From Octopus vulgaris (taxonomy: Eukaryota): a stretch of DNA of 64,000 nt. The notes under the pieces are model-generated. The model saw only the letters and a list, made by a program, of their open reading frames with translations. It was not told where the DNA came from and made no database searches. The position numbers and the translations under genes were made by a program. The stretch covers positions 3,658,001 to 3,722,000 of the forward strand of contig OX597832.1 in assembly GCA_951406725.2 (NCBI GenBank). Direction: 5' to 3'. Shown here piece by piece: positions 2,230 through 63,900 of this stretch (its first letter is position 1; every line of letters starts with the position of its first letter).

Positions 2230-2580
2230 ATATATAATAATTATTATTTGAGTGAATAAAATCCAAACTTACAAGGAAAAAAATTCAATTTAGAAATACT
2301 AAATGAAATTTCACACAATATAATATATATATATATATACAAAATTAGAAAAAAACACCTTTTATCCATTCAAAATGAACAATTAAATTACACCATCTAG
2401 AAAATTACATATAATAGAAATATTAAAATTAAAATAACAATAACATGTCAATGATTAAGTAAATTGCAAAAAAAGTAATAATAAAAACGTATATAATTGG
2501 TAGAATAACGACATCTGTTTCGTGGCTATATTTAAGAAATGATTACAGTGGTAGAGAAATCACTTCGATATAAATATATT
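2230..2580 (-). mobile_element. Truncated PLE-type terminal module with the 3' half of a hammerhead
   Basis: Minus strand reads GCCAC-GAAAC-AGAT-GTC at 2510-2526. AT-rich module abutting a (TACA)n tract; the CUGANGA half is missing at the Tc1 junction. Confidence 0.4.
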
Positions 2581-3593
2581 GTACTGAAGAAAACTTTATC
2601 TCGAAAAACTGTGTCTCGTCCTTTAGTTGAACATGACCTACAAGCAAGAGCACCTGCAGTGAAGCCACTGATCAGCTCCAAGAATAAAAAGTGTCGACTT
2701 ACTTTTGCAACCGAACATGTGTTGTGGTCTCAAGAAAAATGGCAAACGGTGCATTTCAGTGATGAATCTAAGTCTATGTTATTTGGCTCAGATGGGAAAA
2801 GGTACGTTCGTCGAAAAGCAGGTGAAAAATTGTCACCTAAATGCTTTAAGACTAGTGTTAAATTCGGTGGAGGAAGTGTCATGGTTTGGGGGATGATATC
2901 TGGAGATGTTATGGGCCCTTTGCTGCGATTACATGGAAAGGTAAATGCAGGAGTTTACAAACAACTTGTAAAAGATCATGTCTTGCCTGTGCTGAGAAAT
3001 TCAACTAAGCGACCACCCATATTCATGCAGGACAATGCCCCATGTCACAAGGCTAAGGTGGTCATGAACTTCCTCAAGGCTGAAAAGGTTATTGTTATGG
3101 ATTGGCCTGCTCAAAGCCCAGACCTCAATCCTATTGAAAATATGTGGAATATTCTAAGAGAACGTTTGAAAGCCAGAAATCCTAAAACAACCGAGCAATT
3201 ATGGAATGCCCTTCACGAAGAATGGAATAAGATCACCCAGCAAGAAATTGAAAATTTAATTTCCCCATGCAGTCAAAAATGTCAAACTTTGATTGAAACT
3301 AAAGGGCTTCACACTAAATATGAAATAATTCCAGCATTCTCTGTCACTTTTTGATTATTTTGTTATTTTTTCAACCGTTCTGATCATTTTGGCCACCATG
3401 GGTTTTGCAGTAAATCACTATATCATCCATAACTTTTGTATTATCCACTCAAATTACACCAATATCTCAGACAATACCAATTAATAGTATTTATTGTCTG
3501 TGAAAATTATAGAATATAAAACAACTTTAATAAAAACTTATACCTACTTTTCTGACGAAAACAATGCCGTTCTGAACATTTTGGCCGCAACTG
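2580..3593 (+). mobile_element. Tc1-family (DD34E) DNA transposon, 5'-truncated, IR-DR type 3' end
   Basis: ORF 2539-3354 has FSDESK, MVWG, QDNAPCH and WPAQSPDLNPIE with 34 residues between the second D and E. Direct repeat CCGTTCTGA.CATTTTGGCC at 3375 and 3567; end ...GCAACTG followed by TA at 3594. Confidence 0.92.
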
Positions 3594-4903: not shown

Positions 4904-5632
4904 ATGGCCGCCCTGTTGGCAGTGCACACCAAGGAAGAACAGAAATAAGTGATTTCTCTGTTCTGAAAATGTGTCACGGGTTGAAATTCATACAATACGG
5001 GGACTGCGCTCTACCGCGCAGAGGTGTGGATGACGATGTTTAAAAATAGTCGGAAAGCGTGAAGCAAGAAGAGGGAGAAGGACGACAATCAACCACCACC
5101 ACTTACATGAAGATTCGACAGACTCGAGAGGTGGTTCTGGCGGACCGACGAGTGACCATCGATGAGGTGGCATGTTCTCTTCAAATTTGTCATGGTTCTA
5201 CATGCGAAATCATCTACGACAAGCTTTGCTTCTGTAAAGTCTGTGCAAGATGGGTGCCAAGAGAGCTTACCGAAGCGCATAATCGTAATCGTGTGGAGAT
5301 CTGTCAACGCTTACACGATAAAGGCAAAGTTTTTTGGGAGAGAATAGCGAGAGGATATGAAACCTGAGTCCATCATGTTGATCCAGAATCTGAAAAGTAG
5401 AACATGGAGTATAAACAACTTGAAATGCTGGTGAAAAAGTTTAAAAAATGTAAAAAGAACGCCCAAAAATTCGAGACTCAACCGTCAGCAGAAAATGTGA
5501 TACCTTTCCGGGGAAGCAAAAGGGCCCACTTTGGAACATCACCACTGTAGACTACAGAGAAATTCTGGCCAACAAACGGAAACCAGCAATTCTCATGTTA
5601 AAGCAAGTGTTATTGCTGCATGACAATGCACA
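4904..5632 (+). pseudogene. Degenerate mariner transposase
   Basis: DRRVTIDEVA, KVCARWVPRELT, a G.ET.VHH-like motif and LLLHDNA, broken by stops and frameshifts. Confidence 0.85.
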
Positions 5633-16051: not shown

Positions 16052-16648
16052 TATAATAATGCGGTTTTTTCAACAGCTTGAACTAAAAGTCAGGGGGGAA
16101 TGGGATAAACTACTTATATTAACTTGCTATAAAAGCAGGTAGTAATTTTATCTTGTCCTTATTCATAGTGCAAGTTTTGAAGAGTGCATTTCGATTTTAA
16201 CAGCTATTTTTTTCAAAGCTATATTGGAAGTAACAAAGGAGCATATTTGGCATATTTTGCTTTATGTGTTCAATAAAGACAACAACGCAACGGAAAGTAC
16301 AAGAAATATTTATGCAGTATATGGGGATTGGACAATAAGCGTAAGGCAGTGTCAATGGTGGTTCCAGAAATTCCGAGCCATAAACTACAGCCTAGAAGAC
16401 GAGCCTCATCCTGAAAGATCTGTAGAACTCGACAAGGACATCCTGAAAACCCTGGTGGAACAAAATCTCATCGTAACTGTTGAGGAACTAGCAGAGAAGC
16501 TTGGATTTGGTCATTCAACCATTCATTGAGACCTGTGTGCTATCGGAAAAGTCAGCAAATTGGGTCAATGGGTTCCTCACGAACTTTCCGAGTCTAATTG
16601 CATGCAGAGAGTGAATGTATGCTTTTCTTTGCTGTCACATCTCACCAC
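16052..16648 (+). mobile_element. Mariner copy (same family as 10050), 3'-truncated
   Basis: ATAATGCGGTTTTT TIR remnant, EVTKEHIWHILL...WWFQKFR and GQWVPHEL; ends just before a Helitron. Confidence 0.88.
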
Positions 16649-19428: not shown

Positions 19429-19699
19429 TCAAACCCCAGAAAATATTGGAATGTCTAAATAATTAATATGCTCGTTGGTAAAATTGTTTTTGCTGTCAAA
19501 CTGCCTCCAAATGAATATCTACAAAATTCACAGTCTTCAGAAACCTTTTTATTTAATAAACAAAAACAAAAAAAGTGTATCATTTTTAGATATGATTGTT
19601 TTATTTTTTTTTGTGAGCGAGTGAGGAAGCCCATATTTTCGTGACTGTTTCTGTATATATATTATGTTTTTTCTCGATAGGTCCAACATAATTGATAAA

Positions 19700-19888
19700 A
19701 TGGCTGCTAACTGGTTTCTGAGTTTGTTAATATGTCTATTGATAAGCATCAACCTTCATCTTTCATTTTCGCAAGATGGTGACTTGACTTCATTTATCTA
19801 CAGCAACAGCTTTGCTCTCGAACTGATTTCAACAAAACAAAACGTAACTGATTTGGCAAAACAATATGGCTTCCATCTGGGCTCAAAG
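19700..19888 (+). CDS. Furin/prohormone-convertase-like protein, first coding exon (signal peptide and pro-domain start)
   Basis: Acceptor ...TTCTCGATAG at 19680, ATG at 19700, MAANWFLSLLICLLISINLHLSFS signal peptide, YSNSFALE...LAKQYGFHLG (S8 pro-domain pattern), donor AAG|GT at 19889, phase 0. Confidence 0.85.
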
Positions 19889-20797
19889 GTCAATATTTTC
19901 TGAAGAATTTTGATTCAATTATATTTTACATTTCTCGAACTATCATCGTTATCTTGAGTCACAGAATGTTGTATATCTAATTTCAGAACTTGAAATATAT
20001 CTTTAGTTCTGTTAAAACATTTTACATTGTTGTTGTTTAGTCTCAAGACAGCTGTGATCTTGCAGGCACATGATTAAAAGAATTTCATACCTTGGCTTAT
20101 ATTGTTCAACGAGACATTTCGTTTTTAGAATAAGATTGTAGGTTGTCAATTGATTGAAATGTGGTTGTTAATTCGCGCAAATGAAACAACTAAACAGAAG
20201 TTCTTTTGTTGTCTTGCTTATGCGATAACTAATTTTCTCAGTTTATTACACTGTGTAATAAATATTTTTCTGCTTTGGTCAGTAAACGCTATTTCCATTT
20301 GCTTCTATTTAGAACTCAAAGGAAATGATTACTATTTCCTTCAAAATTTACTTTTGTGATCTGGATATCGATGTTTTTGAAACAGAACTGTTTTCCATCA
20401 CATTTCAGACAAATTCAACGCTGAGTTGCTGAAGTAGAAATATTATCGCAAATATTCTGCTCTATACCACAGATTTACTTGTCTCTGATTATGAGCAAGA
20501 ATAGTGGGAGAGCATCATGGCCATGTGTTGAGAGGGATTCTTTGGGGTTTGAATAAATGCAGCAAAGGCAAAGTTTGAAGGAAATATTAGCCGTGTTTCA
20601 TACATAGCAAATAGGAAATAATAGTTGTTACCCAAGGACAAGAATCGTGTTATATATAGTAACTTTAAAAAATCAATATGTAATTATAAAGTTTCTATGT
20701 TGAATAGTAATGATTTCACATATTTACCACGATATTTATTCTAGCCAAATTATCGTTGACTAAATTTTAAAACACTTATATTTAATTTCTATTTCAG

Positions 20798-20899
20798 CAC
20801 GATTATTTGAACGTTTATAGATTGGTTCATCCAGATATCCCCGTTTCGTCGAAAAGAAAAGCTCACAAATTCCTTGAAAGACTCAAGCAAGATGACAGG
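20798..20899 (+). CDS. Convertase-like protein, second coding exon (pro-domain)
   Basis: TTTCAG|...AGG|GTAAAT, 102 nt, HDYLNVYRLVHPDIPVSSKRKAHKFLERLKQDDR; the KR matches the secondary pro-domain cleavage position. Confidence 0.85.
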
Positions 20900-21734
20900 G
20901 TAAATTGAATGGTGTAGTTTGAATGTCTATTATGTCTGTTATGGTAATTAAAGTAACCAGGCTCTCTAATGTTTAAATAAAATGTTCCCATTTAAAATGT
21001 TTACATCTTTCGTTTGTTAACGTACACCCGCAGAAATATTTCGTGCTGTGTGAATATGTAAATAATACCATCAGGCAACATCCAGTTAAGTCTGTTACAA
21101 AGTGTATCTAAAGCCCTAGTCGAATAAATAAATAAAATCAGTTCCTGTTATCAGCTTTCAAACGCTCTGTTGAATATATGACGTGTCAACACACATTATA
21201 TAATTTAATTATAAAGGGATGCTGACCCACATTTAAGTAATTAAAAGGTGGGTTTGATTATTTCTAAAGTTTTCAACATCAAAAATAACGACAGTAAAGC
21301 AGTGATTTGGAAAAATATTAAGGATTAGTTAATAATATTTGTCCGAAAAAATAATGGAGACCAGTCAGATTGTAGACTCAGCTAGGCTGTTTTCTCCGCT
21401 GTGAAAAAACAGTGAAGTATATCCAAAGAATAGCCATTGCTATTCGTGGCTATACTTCTGTGGACGAAGCTCAACTAACCATATAATATCGGAGAAATTT
21501 CTCTTGCTTGCTCGATCAAAGTCCTAATACTTTCTCTAATAACTGTATGTAATCCCACAGTAGTTAATTACGACGTTGAAAACATTGCAAATAGTGAAAC
21601 CTACTCTTTTATTACGTACCTCTTATGGTTTAGTTTATTAGATGTGTACCCTATAAATCACAAGTCTTACTTAATTTTGTTTTGAAAATAAATAATTATA
21701 ATAAGTGAGTGTCATATATTATTTAAAATGCTTG

Positions 21735-21900
21735 GGCGGTGAGCTAGAATAATCATGATCACGTCGGACAAATTGCTTAGCGGTGTCAGTAACGTTGTTA
21801 ATAGGGGGAGCGACCGTCTCCACGGGCACATTTTTCAAAGTTGGTGCTTTTTCAACAATTCTTATTAATTCTTTAGTTCACTTGTGCGATAAAAGTCGAA

Positions 21901-21969
<69 letters not shown>

Positions 21970-22340
21970 TTGTTAATCGCATGGCCTTGGAAGAACCTTC
22001 TGGAATCATTATTTTATTTGGCCAACCTCCAGCGTTTTTGAACTGTCTGCTCAATCTCCTCTGATGTGTTGGTGGCCGTCGGCATCTGAAGGATCAAAAC
22101 AAACCCTGATGTCATAATCTCACGACACAGGATGATCCCGTTGAGTTTCATCTTTTTCACGTCACACCTATATCAGTAGTCGTAAGTTTCATACATAATG
22201 ACATTTTTACTGAAATGTCTTTTTTTATGTGCTCGCTCCCCCTAACTTTAGGACCTGAATTGTAAGAGACATGTTTTTCTCTCTTTACATTCTCATTGCA
22301 AATTCTGCTGTGGTCGACTTTGCCCTTCATTCCTTATGAG
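21735..22340 (+). mobile_element. SINE family B split by a MITE-like insert (~21787-22257)
   Basis: SINE head at 21735-21786 and core resuming ~22290. The insert has inverted TAGGGGGAGCGA/TCGCTCCCCCTA; no target duplication found. Confidence 0.55.
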
Positions 22341-22926
22341 TTATAGATTGTAAATTGTTGTATTTCACAAAATATTTACTGCTTCCGCTCTGCTTTCCAA
22401 AGTACTGCAGCTTAGGAAGTCCAGCAGAGTCGACAATTCATCCAGTTGTTTCTAAGCATAAAGTGTAGACATAGAAAAGTTCCCCAACTGTCAAAACCAG
22501 TGGAAACATTGGTATCGAGGATCCAGTCAGTAAACAGCCTTTAATTTTAGATATAAGCAAATAGTGAAAATCTTGGAATTGTTTTCAAATTATCAGTTCT
22601 TTAAATGAGTTTCTGTTACTGCTACAGAATTCTATCATTGTAGCTATATTCTGCAATATTGCGACAGTGGTAAAACATCCCATTCTCAACGACTCGGCAT
22701 AATTGGAAAATTCTTTTCTTGTTGTATTGCTTGCTACTAAGCAGTGGGGGAAGAGGTCACTGTTTAAGTAACAAGTATTTTTCTTTTTGTTATCTTGTAG
22801 TGCTTCGGCGAAATCCTCTCAAAACTTCTACTGGAGTGAAGTGAGGAGTTCTATAGGGTTGAATAGGCGAAGATATGACCTTTCATTTTTGCACCTTACT
22901 TATAAAGTATTTTCATGTTTAACTAG

Positions 22927-23112
22927 GTGAAATACATTTTACAACTTAAACAACTGCTTCGCCATAAAAAAGGATCAGCTACATCTGCCGATCAAGAATT
23001 ATCTTCCATGAGTAACTTCTCTGGTTACGATGCACATCACCAACAAGCACAAGCTATGAATTGGAGCCGGCCCATATTTACAGACCCATATTTTATTGAT
23101 CAATGGTATTTG
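22927..23112 (+). CDS. Convertase-like protein, third coding exon (pro-domain end and start of catalytic domain)
   Basis: TAG|GTG...TTG|GTACGT, 186 nt, VKYILQLKQLLRHKK...FTDPYFIDQWYL; F.DP.F..QWYL is the hallmark N-terminus of kexin/furin catalytic domains. Confidence 0.9.
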
Positions 23113-26979: not shown

Positions 26980-27735
26980 TCGTAAACAGTCTAGGTAAAA
27001 ATGCACCGAAGTCTTTAGTCATCTATCAAGTCACAACAAGGACCTTAGACAGATAATACTTTACTTAAGATGTGCGCTATGCCCAGTAAGGCTGCTTTTT
27101 GCAAAACATCAATCTTGCATGGGATTTCCAGTTGCCTTAAGAAGTCTTGAAGTTTCCGTGGGATTGAGCCCAACACTCCGATCACCACTAGTATCACATT
27201 AACATTACCCTCTCGCATTCCATACAGTCTTGCCATTTCCACTCTCAGTTCGGAGTACTTGGTGATTTTTTCAACCTCTTTACTCACAATATTCATGTAA
27301 TTTGGTACGGCTACATCAATGACCTGACAGTATTTGTCTCTCTTACTCAATGTTACAATATCCGGCCGACAATGTTCGATTACACGGTCCGTCTGAAAAT
27401 CATAGTCCCAGAGTATCGTTACTTTTCCGTCCTCCTGCTTAACTTTACTTAGTACATGCTCTTACTACTTCTCTATTACTTCATTTTGGTATTTACGGCA
27501 TAAGAGCCAATGAAGATACACACATTTTATCGTGGCGGCGGTTGTATTCTTTTTTATGCAAGGCTCTCACAAGTGGACCACATTTTCCACATTCTTTCCA
27601 CAGAGTCTGCATTTCAAAGTGTCAGAAGTTTCATAGATGTTATACTTCACTGAATTGGTAGCGAGAGCCTGGTCTTGTGCAGCAATGATCAAGCTTTCGA
27701 TGGTACGCTTCAAATCATCTCGGTCTAGCCATGCT
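26980..27735 (-). mobile_element. R4/Dong-like LINE 3' fragment (Zn knuckle and restriction-like endonuclease)
   Basis: ESLIIAAQDQAL, KCRLCG, RRHD, TILWDYDFQTDRVIEHCRPDIV, IDVAVP, EKITKY, LQKAALLG.AHIL. Confidence 0.88.
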
Positions 27736-27804
27736 CACGATGCTGTATTATTCTTAACATCCTGTGTTAAGAATAATACACTGACTGGTACTGCATCAGG
27801 GCAT

Positions 27805-28310
27805 TTATTATTATTAATCAGTTTTATTTTTATAGCGAGCGCAGCTCTATGCCTTGGGTATGTGTTGTGATTTGTTGTGGTGCTCTGATGGTTACTGTAT
27901 TGAAAGTGTTTTGCGTAGGATATGTGCAGTGTCCAGTAGTGCAATTTTCTGTATGTTATATGAGTTTGTAATCCTGGTGTTTTTTGTTATGTATTTGTCT
28001 GAATATTTTTTTATCATACCTAATGCGCCTACTATGATAGGAATTGTTTCTGTTTTTAGATTCCACATTCGAGTTACCTCTATTTCCAGGTATTTTGAAA
28101 GTTTCTCCATTTCTTTTAGAGATACGTTGTCATCTGCTGGTATTGATACATCAATTAGAAAGCATTTTTTTTTTTGTTCATGATCTCTGACAACTATATC
28201 TGGCCTGTTGCCCTTAATTTCTCTATCTGTATGTATTGGCATATCCCAGAGTATGGTTGCTTTCTCGTTTTCTGTGACATTTTCTGGTGTGTGCTTATAC
28301 CATCTTTTTT
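27805..28310 (-). mobile_element. Second R4/Dong-like LINE 3' end with (TAA)n tail
   Basis: WYKHTPENV...ILWDMPIHTDREIKGNRPDIV...LIDVSIP...EKLSKY...QKIALL.TAHILRK; cut at its 5' side by the SINE at 28312. Confidence 0.9.
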
Positions 28311-28311
28311 C

Positions 28312-28515
28312 TGAGCGGGCAGAATCGTTAACACGCTTGACGAAATGCTTAACGGTATTTCGCCCGTCGCTACGTTCTGAATTCAAATTCCGACGAGATA
28401 GATTTTGCCTATCATCATTTCGGGGTCAATAAAATAAGTACCAGTTGAACAATGGGGTCGATATAATCGACTCATCTCCATCTCCCCCAAGCTGCCCTTG
28501 TGTCAAAAAATTGGA
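28312..28515 (+). mobile_element. SINE family B followed by (AAT)n
   Basis: GAGCGGGCAGAATCGTTAACACGC head and TTCGGGGTCAAT core. Confidence 0.8.
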
Positions 28516-28599: not shown

Positions 28600-29715
28600 T
28601 TCTTTTATTAGACACAAGGGCTTACATAAAGCATTAAAGGACAAGCAACAGCAAAAAAGACAATACCAGACGAGACAAAGGGTTTTCAGCGTCTAAACAC
28701 TATATAACAATGACAATTAAACAATATAAAACTCCCAAAAGGGAGGCGCTTTAAAGGTCCTCGTGGAAAACCCCACAAAAACCACGTGTGCCTGATCAAC
28801 AGGGCAAGAGCTCTTCTCCTTTTATCTTTCTCAGAATTGGTCCTTTTACACTGGGTATTCTTCCAACATCCACCCATCTTTCAACAAACTTATTAGAAGG
28901 CAACACTTACCTCTTCACCCCAACTTTCTTCTTCAAATGAAACTTGAAGAAGTTGATGAGGGCTTGGCCAAAGAGGAAAGTGTCTGACTTTAGCCCTTTC
29001 AAACGGGTCCACCATACAACCTCTTTCCCCACAGCCACCAGACAAATAAAAATTGCCTGTCCCCACCAACCAAAGGAGAGCCGCAGGGCAATTTTCACTA
29101 TGGATTCAGCTGATAGCCGGATCTGTCCTAGACGCGAAAGCAGGTGTTCGACATAAATCCACAGGTCAGCAATGCTTGAGTACTGCACGAGGGCGTGCAG
29201 AACGGTTTCCATCGCTCTGCGCGCACCTTGGGCAGGCCCGGCTGACAATACTTCCGTGCTTGTAAAGTTTATCCCGAACAGGCAGCGCCCCTCGGTAGCA
29301 CTGTTAGGTGAGGGATTTCTGGAGGTTGTCCATAGGCCCCGGCTCGAAAGTCCTCCGAAACAGACCGGTCTGCAGATCTTCGTCGACGCCCAGAGTTTCC
29401 CCGAGAATATCGTCGCACTTTCCCTCCACTAACCCTCTATATAACGCTACCACCGACCGCATTGCTCACCTGGCGGATGGCTGTGAGGGGTTGGCGGCAC
29501 TCGAGATGCCAAGCGCTCCTTCTCGGTCTACGCCTAATCCAGGTTTGCAGCTCAATCAAAGAAACGAGCTGTGGAAAAGTGAGTCTGTCAAACGGCAACC
29601 ACACCTGCTCACCATCAAGGAAACGCTGGAGATGCCGTACCCTGAGCGCATGCCTGCGCATCAGCAACCACGACTTGCCTAGCCCTCCATTCAGCGGCTG
29701 ACCAGTGGAATGCGC
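28600..29715 (-). mobile_element. Tx1/L1-clade LINE ORF2 3' fragment, degenerate
   Basis: Zn-finger remnant ETVLHALVQ...LW..VE.LL and C-terminal FVERW; GC-richer than its flanks; (TAA)n on both sides. Confidence 0.7.
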
Positions 29716-29718
29716 CCC

Positions 29719-35612: not shown

Positions 35613-35900
35613 ATTCAATATACAAAAATATTTCTAATATTTTCGGTATGTGGTTTTGAGCAACTTGTTGCAATTAACCCTTTATTATAATTAATATAAT
35701 TCTTACCAAATATGGTCTTTTCCATACCTATAAATCTACTATGTGAAATTTATTAATTTTATTAAAATAATTATATTTCACCCTTTTTTGTATATTGAAT
35801 ACTATCGCTCCCTTACAAGAAATCTACGAAACTTCGTTTCGTTGGTAATGTTTTTGTAACTCACGTGGTAATATTGGAGGGAGATACGAATTCGCCTGTC

Positions 35901-35974
35901 TATATAAATGTAGGGATGCTAGCAGTCCGTTAGATCGTTCGATATCGTTGGTCGAGCCGGTGTAACGGGTGAGT
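35901..35974 (+). promoter_or_regulatory. Candidate TATA promoter, mini-exon and splice donor inside the module
   Basis: TATATAAA at 35901, Inr-like GCAGT ~33 nt later, ACGG|GTGAGT at 35969; the same order is seen on - at 49231 and 49117. Confidence 0.4.
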
Positions 35975-36009
35975 TTTTTTCCCTAGCATTTCTAGATTTA
36001 TAGGAAATA

Positions 36010-36065
36010 TTATATTGACAAGGAAATGAGCCTTCGGTTCTAATCCAGAAACGATTTGTCTATAA
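36010..36065 (+). ncRNA. Type I hammerhead ribozyme with U3:A8 core variant
   Basis: TTATA-TTGACAA-GGA.GAGCC(TTC)GGTTC.TCCA-GAAA-C(GATTT)G-TC-TATAA: 5-bp stem I and GUC triplet. Confidence 0.65.
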
Positions 36066-36843
36066 TTAATCCGTAGGCTGGGATTTCGTTATTTTCTTTC
36101 TTTTTACCATATACGGGTTACAAATTCTGTTTGTTTGTGGAGACATTTATTAGTAGGAGAAATAGTGATCAATTTGGCTGCTATTTCTAATATTTTCGGT
36201 ATGTGGTTTTGAGCAACTTGTTGCAATTAACCATTTATTATAATTAATATATATTTATATATATATAAATGCTAGTGCATTTGGTTATGCATGTGTGTTT
36301 AGCGCCGAAAGGCTCTGAAACTGTGAACCCTCGAGAAAAACGAATTTAATTTTCGAAATTAATGTTCTAAAGAGAAAGTTGTTCGTAAATAATAATAAAA
36401 GATATAATTTGCTACGAGAAAAGATTCAATTTAGACCGACATCCCTCCCACTCTCTATCTGTTACCACTAATCTATCTCTCTATATATTCTTCACTGTCG
36501 TTATCTCTTCCTCCCTCCATCTCCCCTCTCTCTTTGTATATATATTATCTCATATTGCTTTCATTTTGTTTAAAGCCTCGTCTAATGTTTACTTTCATTT
36601 TATGATACACGGCTATTATGCACAAATCCTACTTTCTGATTGGATAGAAATGACCAAACTTGAAACCTCTTTAACATTTTTCTAAATTTTCTCTGGAATG
36701 AATCACGAAATTGGATTCACCATGAAAAATTACATCAATATACTAAATTTGAAAATTGTCACTTAATTTTGAAATTTCAAAACCTGTGACAGCAACAGGA
36801 AAGATCCCCCTCTCGCACTCTCTCCTCCCCTCTCTCTTTCTTG

Positions 36844-38476: not shown

Positions 38477-39120
<644 letters not shown>

Positions 39121-39129
39121 ACATACATA

Positions 39130-39610
39130 TATGGGTACAGGACATCAAAAAACCGTAGACAAAATGAAACGAGAACAAAAAGCAAAAACATAGAAAATGA
39201 ATTTCTTTTCGAACAACGAAAGAAACAAACAAACAGAGAAACGAGACAGGCAACATAAAGAACATTCCCTTCATCAGTTGTGCTCTGTTTTATCTACTCC
39301 GCGTTTCGAAGGTAGGGACAAGACGTGACTTCGTTAAGACAGTCCTTCCTACAAAGCAAATTAAATAAAATTTGGGATTTTTTTGCGGAGGGTGTAAGTG
39401 GTAACAAAAACAGGACAGTGAGAACAAAACAGTAAAAACAAGCGGTAAGGGCTGTTAAGCCATGACGATGTGAAGTGGTGAATGCTGGAAAAATGAGCTT
39501 TGAGAAGAGACATATAAAAGTACATCTTGTCTTTAGGAAGTAAGTGGAAGAAAGAAAGATGGATGGCCGTTGGTCACGTGAGAGCAACGAGAGAGTCAAG
39601 GAGGAAGAGT

Positions 39611-44434: not shown

Positions 44435-44900
<466 letters not shown>

Positions 44901-45484
44901 TATCAGTAAATATAATATGTGACAATTATTCAGAAGCCATGATAAAATTCCGTGTTTCGGATGTCGGGGCGGAAACTGACACCGCCATCTCTTCAATTAT
45001 CCGACCATCGAAAAAATGCTATGAAAATGACCGTTAAACAAAGGAAAATTACTGTGTGATTGACTGTTATTAAGACAAAAGAACTATTGGAATGACCGCT
45101 AAGTGAGGCGGGTGAGTAAAGGTAAAGGAGTAAAAATGTTCATAGTATTCACGTAAGCGCGCATGTCCATACCTACACATGCGCGCCCACTCATCCACGT
45201 ACATGCGCCTATACTCATCCACCCTCACTTGAAACACACACATGCTCACCCATACATTCGCCAAAATATATATACATGCACGCTCGTACGCACGCACACG
45301 CACAAATAAAGGTTCCTACACACGTCTATATACGCACATGCAAAAGAAAAAACAAGGTTAAAGGCAAAATACGTATTAAAAAATAAGCAATAAGAGTAAA
45401 AAACATCTATATACGCACATACCCGTATGCACGCACTCATATACACACACGTCTATATACGCGCACATCCGCACACGTCTATAT

Positions 45485-45520
<36 letters not shown>

Positions 45521-45834
45521 ACAAAATAGTTCATACACATATCTATATACGCACATGCACAAGAAAAAACAGGTCTAAAGGCAAAATACACGAAAAAGTG
45601 TAAGAAATGTGTAAAAATAGGCAATGAGTTAAATACGTCTATATATGCACATACTCGCACACACGCACTCATCCACACGCGAGCACAAAAGATTCCATAT
45701 ACACGTCTGTATACGCACAGGGAAAATGCAGGGTGGAAGGCAGAATACAGAAAAAAAATATGTGTAAAAATATATAAGCAATAAACCTATAAAACAATAT
45801 CTATAAATATGTAAGAAATATATATAGATATATT

Positions 45835-46037
45835 ACTCTTTTACTTGTTTCAGTCATGTGACTGTGGCCATGCCGGAGCACCGCCTTTAGTCGAGCAAAT
45901 CGACCCCAGGACTTATTCTTTGTAAGCCTAGTACTTATTCTATGGGTCTCTTTTGCCTGACCGCTAAGTTAGGGGACGTAAACACACCGGCATCGGTTGT
46001 CAAGCAATGTTGGGGAGGGACAAACACAGACACACAA

Positions 46038-46085
<48 letters not shown>

Positions 46086-46276
46086 ACACACACACATATA
46101 CATATATATACACACACATATATACGACGGGCTTCTTTCAGTTTCCTCTACCAAATCCACTCGCAAGGCTTTGGTCGGTCCGAGGCAATAGTAGAAGACA
46201 CTTGCCGAAGGTGCCACGTAGTGGGACTTAACCCGGAACCATGTGGTTCGTAAGCAAGCTATTTACCACACAGCCA
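45835..46276 (-). mobile_element. SINE family A inserted in the PLE 3' region
   Basis: Near-complete reverse copy of 57724-58155. Confidence 0.9.
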
Positions 46277-48236
46277 ATCAAAGAAATATAAGTAAAAAGC
46301 ATAGAGAGATAAACAGCTTGTACATGGACACAATATAGAAAGCAAGTCCTATCTGTAATCTCGGTGGGGGGGGGGGACCAAAAACGTAACAAATATTTAG
46401 CCACACATGGACATGAACCGAAAAGTTCAGTTCTTGAATTCAGACATGTAGCGGGGTCTAAGCTACTTTTCTTGATGAGCCATCTTTCCATATCACAAAG
46501 ACCGCACTTTCCACTGCCGTTGGTTTAGGGCTTAGATTTGGTTAAGATCTTCCAATGGATGTTGTAACTGACACCTTTATCTTTTAAGGATCATGTATGA
46601 CTGGATAATTTGGTCGTTTTCCTTTTGTCCCAGTGCCTGAAGCTCAAGGTGTGATTATTGAACATGGCCTTGAAATTACCCTCTGTAAGGCCCACGTATT
46701 TCTTCGTCGAAACCGTGTCCTTAGTGGATATAGAGTCCACGGTGGCTTCATAAATGATGATCTCGGACATGCAAGCTCCATTTAGCGGGCACAAATTTTT
46801 ATTCCTGCATGAACAGCTGGTTTCATATTGTGGTTTTTGTGTGTTGTGTGCGATTATATTTTTTTAAATTAGTAGTTGAGCCGAAACTGATTTTTAAGTT
46901 ATGTCTATTGAAGAGCTTTCTTTAACTATGGTTGGCTGGAAAATATCTATCTATCAGTGCTAAGAAATACTTGCCTATATTGAAGGACACTTCGGGTGAG
47001 TAGGGGAGTGTGAACCAGATAGTTTTCCCATTCCTATATTTCCTCTTCTTTATTATTGGACTGGTGCCAGGTGTATAGGTTATTTCCTCGCTAAATCCAC
47101 CATCTTTTAGAGCCTTATTATATACTAGTGCAACGCTATTAGAAGTGTCCCTATCGGAGGAGAGGCTAGAAATTCTTTTGCTAATGTTTTTAACTAAATT
47201 TGTACACACTATGGGGCGGGGGATGGCAGGAACCCACATGAATATAACTAAGTCTATTGTTGGGCTTCCTATAAGGTTTATAAATATTCTTATTTAGATC
47301 TAAGGATACATCTAGGAAATTGGCAACCGTCAGGTTGGTGTCTGTAGATATGCTAAGAAAGAAGGTTTTCATCAAATGGATAATGTCCTTCCTAAACCGA
47401 TTTTGTGCTGGTCCATTGGTATTTGCGGTTAAGGCGAGGGCATCATCTTTGTAGATGGCGAAGTATACGTCAGGAAAAGTCTTGCCCAACGTACCGAGTA
47501 GGAATAGTCCAATCTTTTGTGCGCGCGTGTGGATGTGTGCGTGAATGCGAGTATGTGCATATATAGCCGTGTGTGTGTGTGTGCGTGCGTGCGTGCATGC
47601 GAGTATGTGCGTATATAGACGTGTTCTACTCAGTGCCTATTTTTACATATTTTTTACACTTTTTCCTGTATTTTGCCTTTAGCGCTGTTTTTTCTTGTGC
47701 ACGTACGTACGTAGACGTGTGTATGAACTTTTTTGTGCGCGCGCGCGTGTGTGTGCGTATATAGACGTGTGAGGGTGTTCGCGTATATAGACGTTAGTGT
47801 GTTTGTGTGTGCGTGCATACGGGTATGTGCGTATATAGACGTATTTTACTCTTATTGCTTATTTTTTATGCTTATTTTCCCTTTAATCTGTTTTTCATGT
47901 ACATGTACGTATATAGACGTGTGTAGGAACCTTTTTGTGCGCGTGTGCGTGCGAGCGTGCATGTATATATATTTTGGCGAATGTGTGGGTGAGCATGTGT
48001 GTGTTTCAAGTGAGGGTAGATGAGTATAGGCGCATGTACGTGGGTGAGCGGGCGCGCATGTGTAGGTATGGACATGCGCGCTTACGTGAATACTATGAAT
48101 ATTTTTACTCCCTTACCTTTACTCACCCGCCTCACTTAGCGGTCCTTCTAATAGCTCTTTTGTCTTAATAACGGTCAACCACACAGTAATTTCCCTTTGT
48201 TTAACGGTCATTTTCATAGCATTTTTTCGATGGTCG

Positions 48237-48297
48237 GATGATTGAAGAGATGGCGGCGCGGGTTTCTGCCCCGACAACCGAAACTCGGAGTTTTATC
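48237..48297 (+). ncRNA. Hammerhead-like motif in the pseudo-LTR (mirror copy at 44941-45001, - strand)
   Basis: GATGA-TTGAAGA-GATG...-GAAA-CT(CGG)AG-TT-TTATC; the mirror copy has a perfect GATAA/TTATC stem I. Confidence 0.55.
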
Positions 48298-48424
48298 ATG
48301 GCTTCTGAATAATTGTCACATATATTTACAGATAAATTCTTCTACATGATATCGAGGTCTCTTTCATTCTTTTGTTGTCTTACCATTTCTATCAATATAT
48401 ATATATATATATACTTTCAACTAT

Positions 48425-48714: not shown

Positions 48715-48720
<6 letters not shown>

Positions 48721-49450
48721 CAATGATTAAGGGTAGAATCAATTAATTATTAATTAATTAATTTCACCAAGTGGTGTTCAGTATGTAAAAGGACCATTCA
48801 AGGCGTATTCAATATATTACGTTATATAATTAGGGCTCAGTAAAATAATTTACTTAGCCACATACTGAAATTTTTAAAAATAGCAGCCAAAAAAGTTTTT
48901 TTTAGCTATTTCCACTACTTTAAGAAGAGTCTCCCAGATAGTGTTTACTCAAAAATAACTCACGAAGATATGGAGGGAAAATTCAAAATATCACATGTAC
49001 AAAGATTATTTGAGAACGCTCACGTTTCTAGATAAGTCGGATTAAAAACTCGACATTTCTTTCGTCAGCTCAACATTTCTTAATTTGGATTTGAAAGCAC
49101 TAAAAAACTGAACATACCCGTCCGACATGAATGATCTCAGACAAACATCTCCAAGCTGCCAGTGCCAGCAAATTCAAACAGTACGAGTGAAGATTTATGT
49201 TCTTCCCGCCTCCATCCACGTGATTTATATAGTAAACAGGTTATAACGGTGAGAACCGCAGTAAAAGAACAGGGAGAAAGGAATTGTATTATCAATGATT
49301 AAGGGTAAAATCAATTAATTATTAATTAATTTCACCAAGTAGTGTTCAGTATGTAAAAGGACCATTCAAGGCGTATATATATAAATTTATAAATGAGGGT
49401 GAAAAATTGATATTAATTTAATAATACCATTAATTTAACACCAAGTGGCT
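48715..49450 (-). mobile_element. PLE pseudo-LTR-like module with ~90-bp direct repeats
   Basis: TATTATCAATGATTAAGGGT...CAAGGCGTA at 48715 and 49287, plus a third diverged partial copy at ~49395-49450. Confidence 0.75.
49010..49073 (-). ncRNA. Type I hammerhead ribozyme fold
   Basis: TTGAG-CTGACGA-..GTCG/CGAC..-GAAA-CG(TGAG)CG-TT-CTCAA: perfect 5-bp stem I, canonical core, GUU triplet. Confidence 0.65.
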
Positions 49451-49554
49451 TAGCACAAAAAACTAGGGAGAAAATACAAATTTATACATGAATTTATACA
49501 TATGTATATATTTATGTATAATTTATATATAAATTTGTAAACTCTCTAATAATT

Positions 49555-62196: not shown

Positions 62197-63450
62197 ACCA
62201 CAAAAGTAATGTCGCACACATACTAAACAGAAACCGGTTTATTAACAGACTGCTATAACATTGATTGAAGATTGCTAATTAAGAAACCGCTCTGTCCTAA
62301 TGATAAAACTTCAAAACCTGAAACATGTTTGACGTCACATAGTGTCACGTGATGAAAGGATGCCCTGGATCCAAAGAGATGAACTCAATATCTCGTGTGA
62401 TTATCGTTAGCGTTAATTACCGCCAGGCATCTTCTGTACATTGAATGCACCAAATGATTGATGAAGGCCATTGAGATAGAAGCTCACACTCTGTTAAAAC
62501 TTGCAGTGAGTTGTGCCGGATGTCATTTAGCCTTCTTTGGATTTTGTCCCACAGATGATGTATGGGGTTCAAGTTCGGACTTAGGGCAGGTCATGGTAGA
62601 CTCTGGATGTTGTACTGTTAGAGGAAGTCTGTTGCCAACCTGGCAGTATGGGCACGGGCGTTGTCGTGTTGAAACACGTGATTCTGATGACTGGCAAAGT
62701 ATTACACAATGTGAGGCCTCAACACTTGGTCGATGTAGCGAGCAGCGGTTACTCCATTGCCTTGACTTTGGCCGATGTTTTGGAAGACCACGGGTCCAAT
62801 TTTTTTGTTGAGCGCAATCCCGCCTCATACTATTATGCTCTGTCCTTCTCACGAGTTTCTCTCTACCACACAACCATCGGCATAATGTTCACCTCTTCTT
62901 TCCCAAACCCTAGCTCTGCCATCTGGCACAGAAATGCAATATCGAGTATCGTCAGAGAAGATTACGGTCCTCCACTGCTGATATCGCCAGTTCTGACGTT
63001 TTTGAGCTCACTGCAGACGTGCCCGTCAATGACAATCTGTGAGGATGAGGCCCCTAGCCGGACGTCGACAAGAGAGATTGAAATATCTCAGTCGACGGCG
63101 AACTGTCTCAGCACAAATAGGTCTGTGGTGAGTTCCTATGGCCTGCCTAGCTGAATCTGTTGCCCTCCGGAATAGGTCCTGCAAGTGCAGGCAGTGCAGG
63201 TGTCGATCTTGACGTACCGTTGTAACCCTCGGTCGGCCAATGCGTTGATGATCATCCATGTTGTGTGTGGTACTGTATCGTTCTCTCAGCCGCTCAGTTG
63301 TCCGAATACTGCAATTCAAGTCATTAGTGATGACCCATGGACGTTGACCAGCATCGAGACGCCCGATGGCTTGCTTCCTCTGATCTCATGTCAGTCTTGG
63401 CATACTTACTGCGTTCAGGAAACGAATTTATTTTCCACTAACAACCTGAG
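62191..63450 (-). mobile_element. Tc1-family element with full-length but disrupted transposase (62385-63403)
   Basis: MPRLT..., GRPRVTT, TVRRRL, VIFSDDTRY, FQHDNARAHTA, PALSPNLNPIHHLWD, HTRY*; several stops and the catalytic Glu is lost; one TIR-like end at 62191. Confidence 0.9.
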
Positions 63451-63900
63451 TTAAACATAGAAGAGGACTGTACAGGAGAAAACAAGGGGATACATATGAG
63501 GTCAGGGACTTGAACGAATGTTTAAACAATATGATAAATGATAACCCGTAATTAAAAATCAATGACAATAATTCGAATGAATAACAATTAGAAAGGTGGA
63601 ATGGTTCGAACCCACAAACCACATTCCTACGCCGAACCGTTTTGTAGCCTTTTACATGTTCACTCAACCAGGCTCTTTCACTCCCAGCATACGAACCACC
63701 TCCATCTTTTGCCATATTTGCTGGATGGCAGGCATCTCCTCTCCAGCCGTACTTTCCTTCTCAAAGCGATAATATTTTGGACATTCAACACACCACGAGT
63801 TCCTACACAAGACAACCCCGACAGGTGTCGAGGGACTATCAAAGACGTTTGTAGACTGGCGACACCAAAACAATGAACTTTGGTTGCAACACAACAAGGC
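63450..63900 (-). mobile_element. Tx1/L1-like LINE 3' tip
   Basis: LRRKVRLERRCLPSSKYGKRW resembles the C-terminus of the 28600-29715 element (KKKVGVKR.VLPSNKFVERW). Confidence 0.55.

What the first reader, a model, noticed from the sequence alone, without database searches (positions are those of the whole stretch)
35629..36251. TATA - mini-exon - splice donor - hammerhead cassette between direct repeats
Order on +: CACGTG, CTATATAAAT (35900), ACGG|GTGAGT (35969), then ~40 nt later an HHR with U3:A8 core (36010-36065), all between 70-bp direct repeats. The divergent sister at 48715-49450 keeps the same order on - despite little sequence identity in between. PLEs are known to carry promoters, introns and HHRs in pseudo-LTRs. 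Inference: a self-contained non-coding unit in which the ribozyme lies just inside an intron, so splicing and self-cleavage compete. The donor could also splice into host exons.
Basis: partly seen in the sequence, partly recalled or inferred. Interest (0 to 1): 0.7.

Follow-up and report, generated by a model that had tools for sequence, protein, structure and literature searches.

The report
Ribozyme jumping repeat with folded "promoter"
This is one copy of a non-coding, hammerhead-bearing repeat that is scattered through this animal genome and is likely moved by Penelope-type retrotransposons; the stretch that looks like a TATA box, mini-exon and splice donor varies between sister families and is predicted to be part of one long folded RNA, so it is probably not a small spliced gene.

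Summary
The motifs are at the stated places. The element is 1.13 units of a 553-bp dispersed and tandem repeat with Penelope-like insertion marks: two fixed 3' ends, (TA)n targets and inverted 5' arms. The "70-bp repeats" are a run-over of the unit, not LTRs. Hammerhead stem I and the 3:8 core pair covary across four sister families (53-71% identical). The proposed promoter-intron cassette is not conserved. TATA is present in 10/25, 0/30, 14/14 and 0/14 sampled copies; the donor in 23/25, 28/30, 12/14 and 0/14; no acceptor is shared; no intron-less genomic copy was found. Instead, CACGTG, TATA, "exon", donor and pyrimidine tract fold in all four families into one 270-nt domain around the ribozyme (z -7.4). 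Inherited changes keep pairing on the sense strand (G-U 49 versus A-C 15; singletons 64 versus 57). The selected RNA therefore likely contains the TATA itself, which points to read-through or circular RNA. Verdict: a new member of a known kind (non-LTR retrozyme). Earlier notes of this scan report similar elements elsewhere in this genome. Cutting, circles, start sites and splicing are untested.

The parts
35629..36181 (+). One full 553-bp unit of family A (circularly permuted; non-coding)
   Evidence: Repeats head to tail with a 558-560 bp period at G000:C2:84.288M; 108 matches listed from 40 of 1964 candidates scored
36182..36251 (+). Run-over into a second unit, ending at fixed 3' end no. 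1 (unit position 70), then (TA)n; this is the 'direct repeat'
   Evidence: 69 of 70 identical to 35629-35698; same end in many relatives
35613..35628 (-). Short inverted 5' arm, the reverse complement of 35785-35800, ending at fixed 3' end no. 2
   Evidence: Read directly from the sequence; 11 of 23 independent loci have longer inverted arms
35780..35801 (+). Fixed 3' end no. 2 (unit position ~167-173), about 13-18 nt after ACCCT; inferred second reverse-transcription start
   Evidence: Ends of relatives; two-start mechanism shown for another PLE in PMC11167929
35853..36124 (+). Predicted 270-nt RNA domain: an outer rod (35853-35896 with 36076-36124) closing a junction with the long hairpin and the hammerhead
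   Evidence: MFE -98.2 kcal/mol, z -7.4, 0 of 200 shuffles; antisense z -2.8; same layout in four families folded separately; inherited G-U excess
35862..35867 (+). CACGTG; lies in the 5' strand of the outer rod; possible upstream promoter motif
   Evidence: Exact in 23/25 A, 26/28 B, 1/13 F, 0/14 E; a looser CAC(G/A)(T/C)G in 10/13 F and 13/14 E
35901..35908 (+). TATA-like TATATAAA; 35903-35909 pairs with 35996-36002
   Evidence: TATAWAW in 10/25 A, 0/30 B, 14/14 F, 0/14 E; A35907G is matched by T35998C in one 7-copy clade
35903..36002 (+). Long hairpin holding the TATA arm, the 'mini-exon' and the donor; core helix 35916-35922 with 35983-35989
   Evidence: RNAalifold picks the core helix unaided on 81 rows; 8 of 19 pairs change on both sides; predicted in each family separately
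35969..35974 (+). 5' splice-site-like GTGAGT; positions -6 to +2 are paired in the predicted fold of the window copy
   Evidence: G|GTRWG in 23/25 A, 28/30 B, 12/14 F, 0/14 E, where GT is AT; fold
36009..36066 (+). Type I hammerhead motif, U3:A8 core, short stem III; predicted cut between 36060 and 36061; one extra A before G12
   Evidence: core pattern intact in 22/25 A, 21/30 B, 13/14 F, 10/14 E
36173..36206 (+). Most conserved 34-nt block of the superfamily, upstream of 3' end no. 1; inferred part of the site read by the borrowed reverse transcriptase
   Evidence: 30 of 34 columns identical in A, B and F; 2522 exact pattern matches genome-wide, reversed control 0
48715..49400 (-). Sister copy, family B (unit about 565 bp), C3:G8 hammerhead core at 49068, ends at 3' end no. 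2
   Evidence: domain fold z -4.8

Best explanation
This is a single, 1.13-unit insertion of a non-coding 553-bp hammerhead repeat (non-LTR retrozyme type) that is likely copied into (TA)n tracts by a Penelope-type reverse transcriptase, and its apparent TATA-exon-donor cassette is predicted to be part of a 270-nt folded RNA domain rather than a working spliced gene. Steps: (1) shown: dispersed and tandem copies, two fixed 3' ends about 97 nt apart, (TA)n targets, variable and inverted 5' ends. (2) Shown by comparison: hammerhead stem I and the 3:8 pair covary, and the surrounding 270 nt keep base pairing on the sense strand in inherited changes. (3) Inferred (about 85%): the RNA under selection contains CACGTG and the TATA segment, so it is a read-through or multimeric transcript or a circle, not an RNA starting 30 nt after the TATA. 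(4) Inferred (about 60%): tandem copies are cut at 36060/36061-equivalents, probably with dimer or protein help; the outer rod holds the two ends of the released monomer together and it is ligated to a circle. (5) Inferred (about 80%): a PLE protein starts cDNA at two internal sites and copies more than one unit, which gives the '70-bp repeats' and the two-armed insertions. The donor and TATA are probably leftovers of the ancestral pseudo-LTR promoter and intron, or chance by-products of an AT-rich stem. This copy has one ribozyme only, so it could not release a unit-length RNA by itself.
For: Insertion marks: 33 of 34 arms at 23 independent family A loci end at unit position 68-70 or 160-173, and run into TA-rich microsatellite; 11 of 23 loci have an inverted arm, and in 10 of these 11 one arm ends at each site. 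Arrays with 558-560 bp period. Covariation: 88.4% of cells paired against 35-44% for slid partners; 14 of 28 pairs change on both sides. Domain fold z -7.4 sense, -2.8 antisense; family alignments fold at z -9.0, -8.4, -2.8, -4.9 against column shuffles and better on the sense strand in all four. At Watson-Crick pairs of each family's majority fold, changes shared by two or more copies give G-U 49 versus A-C 15 (p 2e-5) and singletons 64 versus 57 (p 0.59); Fisher p 0.002. In family A the six paired TATA positions 35904-35909 keep pairing in 22-24 of 24 rows while most copies lack TATAWAW. Family E is dispersed over many chromosomes (53 matches listed) with neither TATA nor donor. No intron-less family A copy: 96 unspliced pattern matches against 3 shortened matches, none of them this element. 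Coding PLEs with RT and GIY-YIG domains and 781-aa open frames exist in the genome.
Against: No autonomous partner was found: profile searches of 80 PLE loci (421 kb) hit 6 loci at E below 0.001 or close to it; the ones read were separate insertions, several in the (TA)n tail of a coding PLE, not its pseudo-LTR. Predicted folds leave the hammerhead core mispaired in the window copy, there is an extra A before G12, and published metazoan PLE hammerheads cut weakly (PMC4209133) or not at all in 8 of 9 dimers tested (bioRxiv 10.64898/2026.07.22.740005). The number of pairs with two-sided change did not exceed the shuffle control (14 against a mean of 15.5), and rows are related, so events are few. 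Family F keeps both TATA and donor, and its fold is the weakest (z -2.8); family E shows no G-U excess (6 versus 6). The unit (553-570 bp) is longer than the 150-400 nt typical of published retrozymes. Copies were chosen as best matches to each seed, and the family A query favours copies that reach position 70.
Confidence: 0.72

Rival explanations
1. One reading: the unit is a small Pol II gene. TATA starts a capped RNA near 35932, a 35-nt exon ends at 35968, and the hammerhead sits in an intron so that splicing and self-cleavage compete.
For: TATA to donor to hammerhead spacing is plausible in the window copy and all three are present in most family F copies. D. virilis Penelope has a 75-bp intron 46 bp after its start site (PMC2377424, passages), whose 3' end meets hammerhead helix I (PMC4209133). 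A coding PLE in this genome shows TATA-like, donor-like and acceptor-like motifs in its pseudo-LTR (read by eye). Donor variants in A, B and F (GTGAG, GTAAG, GTATG) all fit the consensus.
Against: TATA is absent from 15/25 A, 30/30 B and 14/14 E copies; the donor is lost in 14/14 E. No shared acceptor: the best candidate is in 10 of 25 A copies and not in the window copy. The motifs are paired in a fold under sense-strand selection that includes the TATA. The Penelope promoter is described as TATA-less (PMC2377424).
Confidence: 0.08
2. Dual use: the same bases act as a promoter in DNA and as structure in RNA. An RNA started after the TATA lacks the 5' arm, so its donor is open to U1 or to splicing into a downstream host exon; read-through or circular RNA has the arm and masks the donor, so the mobile form stays unspliced.
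For: Computed cost of opening donor -3..+6 is higher in read-through RNA than in RNA starting at 35933: medians 9.2 vs 5.1 (A), 11.0 vs 6.9 (B), 6.0 vs 2.9 (F) kcal/mol. A CAC-box, a G-rich box and an AT-rich segment keep their order in all four families. The donor survives in three families.
Against: The same drop occurs in donor-less family E (6.5 vs 3.2), so it is a general result of removing a hairpin arm; the donor-like site of the coding Neptune-type pseudo-LTR shows no masking (2.7-3.1 in all contexts). The start site is only predicted. Donor conservation is not above background (P = 0.11).
Confidence: 0.15
3. Same element and same fold, but the ribozyme rarely cuts: the template is an uncut linear multimer, tandem copies arise from read-through transcripts of arrays, and no circle is needed.
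For: For the anole PLE, ribozyme mutants did not affect insertion in vitro and no reads ended at the cut site (PMC11167929). Weak or absent cleavage of minimal PLE hammerheads (PMC4209133; bioRxiv 10.64898/2026.07.22.740005). Mispaired core in predicted folds.
Against: Stem I and the 3:8 pair covary across four families, and loop III is palindromic in F and E (12 copies each), which fits selection for dimer cleavage. Coral, mussel and axolotl retrozymes were shown to give circles (PMC7229834).
Confidence: 0.3
4. The self-complementarity is a DNA-level relic of old inverted duplications, with no RNA function.
For: PLE insertions often make inversions (PMC8557442 section 6); the antisense strand also folds better than shuffles (z -2.8).
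Against: DNA symmetry predicts equal G-T and A-C departures; inherited changes are 49 versus 15 while singletons are balanced. Arms change together between families.
Confidence: 0.04

Closest known systems
Metazoan non-LTR retrozymes (Cervera and de la Pena 2020, PMC7229834; Li, Clavereau and Pollet 2026, bioRxiv 10.64898/2026.07.22.740005)
   Same: Non-coding, AT-rich, one type I hammerhead per unit, solo and tandem copies, predicted highly self-paired RNA, coding PLEs in the same genome.
   Different: Unit of 553-570 bp is longer than the 150-400 nt described; comparative evidence for selection on a 270-nt fold is given here; RNA, cleavage and circles are not shown; no sister pseudo-LTR of a coding PLE was found.
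Pseudo-LTRs of EN+ Penelope-like elements (Neptune/Naiad-type (TA)n targeting; PMC8557442) and PAc of Anolis (PMC11167929)
   Same: Partial tandems, inverted 5' arms, two fixed 3' ends, AT-rich targets, hammerhead upstream of the start sites.
   Different: No ORF; the two ends are about 97 nt apart rather than 30-40 nt.
D. virilis Penelope promoter, intron and hammerhead (PMC2377424; PMC4209133)
   Same: Order of promoter-like motif, short 'exon', donor, hammerhead.
   Different: Penelope's promoter is TATA-less, its donor and acceptor are both conserved and spliced RNA was shown; here no acceptor is conserved, the donor is lost in one family and the ribozyme would lie 46 nt after the donor rather than at the intron's 3' end.
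U3-A8 minimal hammerheads of Schistosoma Cercyon PLEs (PMC4209133)
   Same: U3:A8 replaces C3:G8 in families A and F.
   Different: Here families A and F lack the unpaired base between positions 9 and 10.1 and carry one before G12; B and E have both.

Membership tests
Non-LTR retrozyme | Type I hammerhead in every unit | tested here: met
   Core pattern in 66 of 83 sampled copies; stem I and 3:8 covariation; one motif per unit in the array, 559-560 nt apart
Non-LTR retrozyme | Tandem units plus dispersed copies | tested here: met
   96 family A pattern matches
Non-LTR retrozyme | No protein coding | tested here: met
   No stop-to-stop frame of 90 aa or more within the window copy; families differ by many indels
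Non-LTR retrozyme | Self-cleavage of the RNA | not testable with these tools
   Needs in vitro transcription
Non-LTR retrozyme | Expressed as unit-length linear and circular RNA | tested here: inconclusive
   Only contigs of runs guessed to be RNA were available; they cannot show ends or circles
Non-autonomous PLE derivative | Fixed 3' ends with optional tail, 5' truncation and inversion, microsatellite targets | tested here: met
   33 of 34 arms at two ends; 11 of 23 loci inverted; same two ends in family B
Non-autonomous PLE derivative | Sequence shared with the pseudo-LTR of a coding PLE | tested here: inconclusive
   Not found in 80 PLE loci; these are a small part of 6136 and 9613 first-look candidates
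Autonomous PLE | RT plus GIY-YIG ORF between pseudo-LTRs | tested here: not met
   The unit closes on itself without an ORF
Penelope-type 5' intron unit | Conserved donor | tested here: inconclusive
   63 of 69 copies in A, B, F; 0 of 14 in E; not above background
Penelope-type 5' intron unit | Conserved acceptor | tested here: not met
   No YAG with pyrimidine tract shared across families; best 10 of 25 in A
Penelope-type 5' intron unit | Spliced transcripts | tested here: inconclusive
   No GT..AG joint listed in contigs of 8 runs; contigs cannot show absence
TATA-box Pol II promoter | TATAWAW conserved at a fixed place | tested here: not met
   24 of 83 copies
TATA-box Pol II promoter | Capped start site about 30 nt downstream | not testable with these tools
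   Needs CAGE or 5' RACE
LTR element or plant LTR retrozyme | True terminal repeats with type III hammerhead and target-site duplication | tested here: not met
   Repeats are unit run-over of variable length; the ribozyme is type I and outside them

The most novel reading that the evidence does not exclude
The fold is a switch built from the old Penelope promoter: RNA that begins upstream (read-through or circle) pairs the promoter arm over the splice donor and stays unspliced and mobile, while RNA that begins at the promoter exposes the donor and can splice, for instance into host exons. This would be a simple physical answer to how Penelope-type elements keep introns through retrotransposition.
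Probability: 0.12. Interest if true: 0.7.

Novelty: new member of a known kind. Interest (0 to 1): 0.36.

Why it matters
The class is known, and earlier notes of this scan describe similar repeats in this genome. That supports a read-through or circular RNA as the replicating form of animal retrozymes, and gives four natural families (with and without TATA and donor) as a ready comparison for probing and minigene work. If the donor-masking switch were real, it would make the long-standing question of intron retention in Penelope-like elements directly testable.

Tried and rejected
Rfam scan of the whole window: 0 matches at gathering score. RNA evidence: no RNA holder listed (all runs were guesses). 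Contigs of 8 of the 24 listed runs were laid, 4 on the window copy and 4 on a family B copy. All ten listed joints were examined and none is a GT..AG skip from the donor; one 189-nt skip in run X9 starts 34 nt after the donor with a 24-nt side. Listed contigs cross the donor unspliced in 7 of the 8 runs. Contigs show presence, not absence, the tables were cut, and the runs may hold DNA, so this counts neither for nor against splicing or expression. Intron-less genomic copies: family A pattern gave 3 matches and family B pattern 7; none is a spliced copy (9 unrelated, 1 a two-armed family B fragment). Families F and E were not searched this way, and PLEs are known to keep introns, so this test is weak. 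Autonomous partner: not found; the PLE remnant at window 46591-47636 and its relatives carry a different hammerhead. Donor masking as a general PLE rule: not seen in the one coding pseudo-LTR tested. A first table of pair probabilities was off by one base and was not used. Rows left out: L024-L027 and L029 (same array as L023), L045 from structure work (stretch replaced by microsatellite), L021 from alignment A1 (identical to L022), and copies not covering a motif. L021/L022 and L023/L030 are arms of single loci, so a few 'shared' changes are not independent. Literature searches listed no paper on this fold by title or abstract start; only open-access papers were searched and no supplements were read, and supplementary structure figures of PMC7229834 may bear on novelty.

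Full report
Observation. Rfam finds nothing in the window at gathering score. The sister at 48715-49400 (minus) has CACGTG, donor and ribozyme core at almost the same spacing, but its TATA-like string lies upstream of CACGTG and is peculiar to that copy.

What the element is. A search of the 2.8-Gb genome lists 108 matches from 40 of 1964 candidates scored. The unit is 553 bp and forms head-to-tail arrays with a 558-560 bp period, so the '70-bp repeats' are a run-over into a second unit. Among 23 independent family A loci, 33 of 34 arms end at unit position 68-70 or 160-173, shortly after ACCCT, and run into TA-rich microsatellite; 11 loci carry an inverted arm, and 10 of these have one arm at each end. 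The query favours copies that reach position 70. The window copy has a 16-nt inverted arm at 35613-35628. Family B shows the same two ends. These are the marks described for Penelope-like elements: partial tandems, inverted 5' copies, optional tail and (TA)n targets (PMC8557442, section 6 and passages read), and two internal start sites of reverse transcription (PMC11167929, parts 1-2 of the text read). A 34-nt block is shared by a larger group, with 2522 exact pattern matches and 0 for the reversed control. From these I took two more families, F and E. The four families are 53-71% identical. Sampled copies were the best matches to each seed: 25, 30, 14 and 14.

Ribozyme. The core pattern is intact in 22/25, 21/30, 13/14 and 10/14 copies of A, B, F and E, with U3:A8 in A and F and C3:G8 in B and E. 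On 81 rows, 5 of 6 stem I pairs and the 3:8 pair change on both sides. Loop III is palindromic in F and E and mostly not in A and B. The U3-A8 variant, dimer-type activation and low activity in vitro are published (PMC4209133, parts 1-2 read). Predicted folds leave the core mispaired in the window copy, and A and F have an extra A before G12. Activity is untested.

Test of the promoter-intron reading. At matched columns TATAWAW occurs in 10/25 A, 0/30 B, 14/14 F, 0/14 E; G|GTRWG in 23/25, 28/30, 12/14, 0/14; in E the GT is AT. Across A, B and F the donor is identical at 5 of 7 columns against 139 of 337 overall (P = 0.11), and no acceptor is shared; the best candidate is in 10 of 25 A copies and absent from the window copy. 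Family A gives 96 unspliced pattern matches and no intron-less copy. The known Penelope promoter is TATA-less, with conserved donor and acceptor and spliced RNA (PMC2377424, passages read).

What the stretch does instead. Folded family by family, 35903-36002 forms one long hairpin that holds TATA arm, 'exon' and donor, and 35853-35896 pairs with 36076-36124 to close a junction around this hairpin and the ribozyme. The window copy folds at z -7.4 on the sense strand and -2.8 on the antisense, the sister at z -4.8. Family alignments score z -9.0, -8.4, -2.8 and -4.9 against 25 column shuffles each. RNAalifold picks the core helix 35916-35922: 35983-35989 unaided. For 28 named pairs, 88.4% of cells pair against 35-44% for slid partners; the count of pairs with two-sided change (14) does not exceed the shuffle mean (15.5), and rows are related. 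In family A, the change that breaks TATAAA at 35907 is matched by a change at 35998 in one 7-copy clade, and the other common changes at 35907-35908 leave G-U pairs. The best control is internal: at Watson-Crick pairs of each family's majority fold, changes shared by two or more copies give G-U 49 and A-C 15, singletons 64 and 57 (Fisher p 0.002); family E alone shows 6 and 6. Neutral transitions or DNA symmetry would give equal numbers, so this points to selection on the sense RNA. Because the fold includes CACGTG and the TATA segment, the selected RNA must begin upstream of them: a read-through transcript, a multimer or a circle (inference).

Mechanism. Most likely tandem or read-through copies give multimeric RNA; ribozymes cut it to units, the outer rod keeps the two ends together, and a circle forms, as shown for coral, mussel and axolotl retrozymes (PMC7229834, passages and discussion read). 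A PLE protein then starts cDNA at two sites and copies more than one unit into (TA)n. Insertion marks and covariation are shown; cutting, circles and the enzyme are inferred. Coding PLEs with RT and GIY-YIG domains are present, but none of 80 PLE loci shares this unit as its pseudo-LTR. An uncut linear multimer remains a fair rival, since the anole PLE did not need its ribozyme in vitro (PMC11167929) and 8 of 9 frog dimers did not cut (bioRxiv 10.64898/2026.07.22.740005, parts 1 and 3 read). This copy has one ribozyme and could not release a unit.

Residual case for the donor. It survives in three families, and it is 3-4 kcal/mol harder to open in read-through RNA than in RNA starting at TATA+32. 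The same drop is seen in donor-less family E and none in a coding pseudo-LTR. I give the switch 12%.

Host context. The copy lies on the sense strand, and the sister on the antisense strand, of a gene with Peptidase S8 exons downstream (G000:C19:3731901, 3745153, 3772176). An exon ending at window 23112 and the next at C19:3731826 read on as one frame, which suggests an intron of about 51 kb; this is inferred from sequence, intervening exons were not excluded, and the label 'kexin-like' is recalled. Splicing from the element's donor into that exon is possible in principle and was not tested directly.

RNA data. No run on record as RNA was listed; the contig results are given under Tried and rejected and carry no weight either way.

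Verdict. Real feature, known class, first interpretation mostly not borne out. Earlier notes of this scan report similar hammerhead repeats with two fixed starts and a U3-A8 core elsewhere in this genome; a look-up by sequence found none. New member of a known kind; interest 0.36.

Noticed in passing
window 19625-23112 (+) and G000:C19:3731826-3772283: Exons of a subtilisin-family (Peptidase S8) protease gene; both hammerhead repeats lie in what appears to be a ~51-kb intron of it.
   Followed up: partly
window 44915-48323: Decayed Penelope-type element: RT and GIY-YIG remnants at 46591-47636 (-), 392-nt inverted arms at 44915-45306 and 47932-48323, and its own hammerhead-like motif at 48242 (+), unrelated to families A and B.
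   Followed up: partly
L081-L088, L099, L100 (e.g. G000:C16:20833500-20841500): Young Neptune-type PLE family with a 479-aa frame overlapping a 781-aa RT/GIY-YIG frame; its pseudo-LTR has CCAAT-like, TGACGTC, TATA-like and donor-like motifs, and an acceptor-like TTTCAG inside stem II of a U3:A8 hammerhead-like motif. A better place than this finding to test splicing against cleavage.
   Followed up: partly
L212 (G000:C10:27049500-27051830): Family A copy with an internal 267-bp sub-array (unit positions 204-470: CACGTG to ribozyme, without the 3'-end block), joined at short TTCG/TTTC similarity.
   Followed up: partly
L094, L184, L193: Members of this repeat group sit in or next to the (TA)n tail of coding PLE copies, giving nested insertions.
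   Followed up: partly
L127-L129, L131, L135: Near-identical short two-armed family B-like fragments with similar flanks at several places on C1, perhaps part of a larger duplicated segment.
   Followed up: no
window 49400-49480 (-): An 80-nt diverged piece resembling the 3'-end block of another family abuts the 5' side of the sister copy.
   Followed up: no
window 2536-3354, 5050-5367, 16146-16529, 62600-63454: Tc1/mariner-like transposase fragments (label recalled from the look of the translations; not searched).
   Followed up: no
window 27045-28425 and 28907-29718: Fragments resembling non-LTR retrotransposon C-terminal regions (label recalled; not searched).
   Followed up: no
window 38490-39160 and 44490-44910: Very long (TA)n-rich tracts of 400-600 bp.
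   Followed up: no
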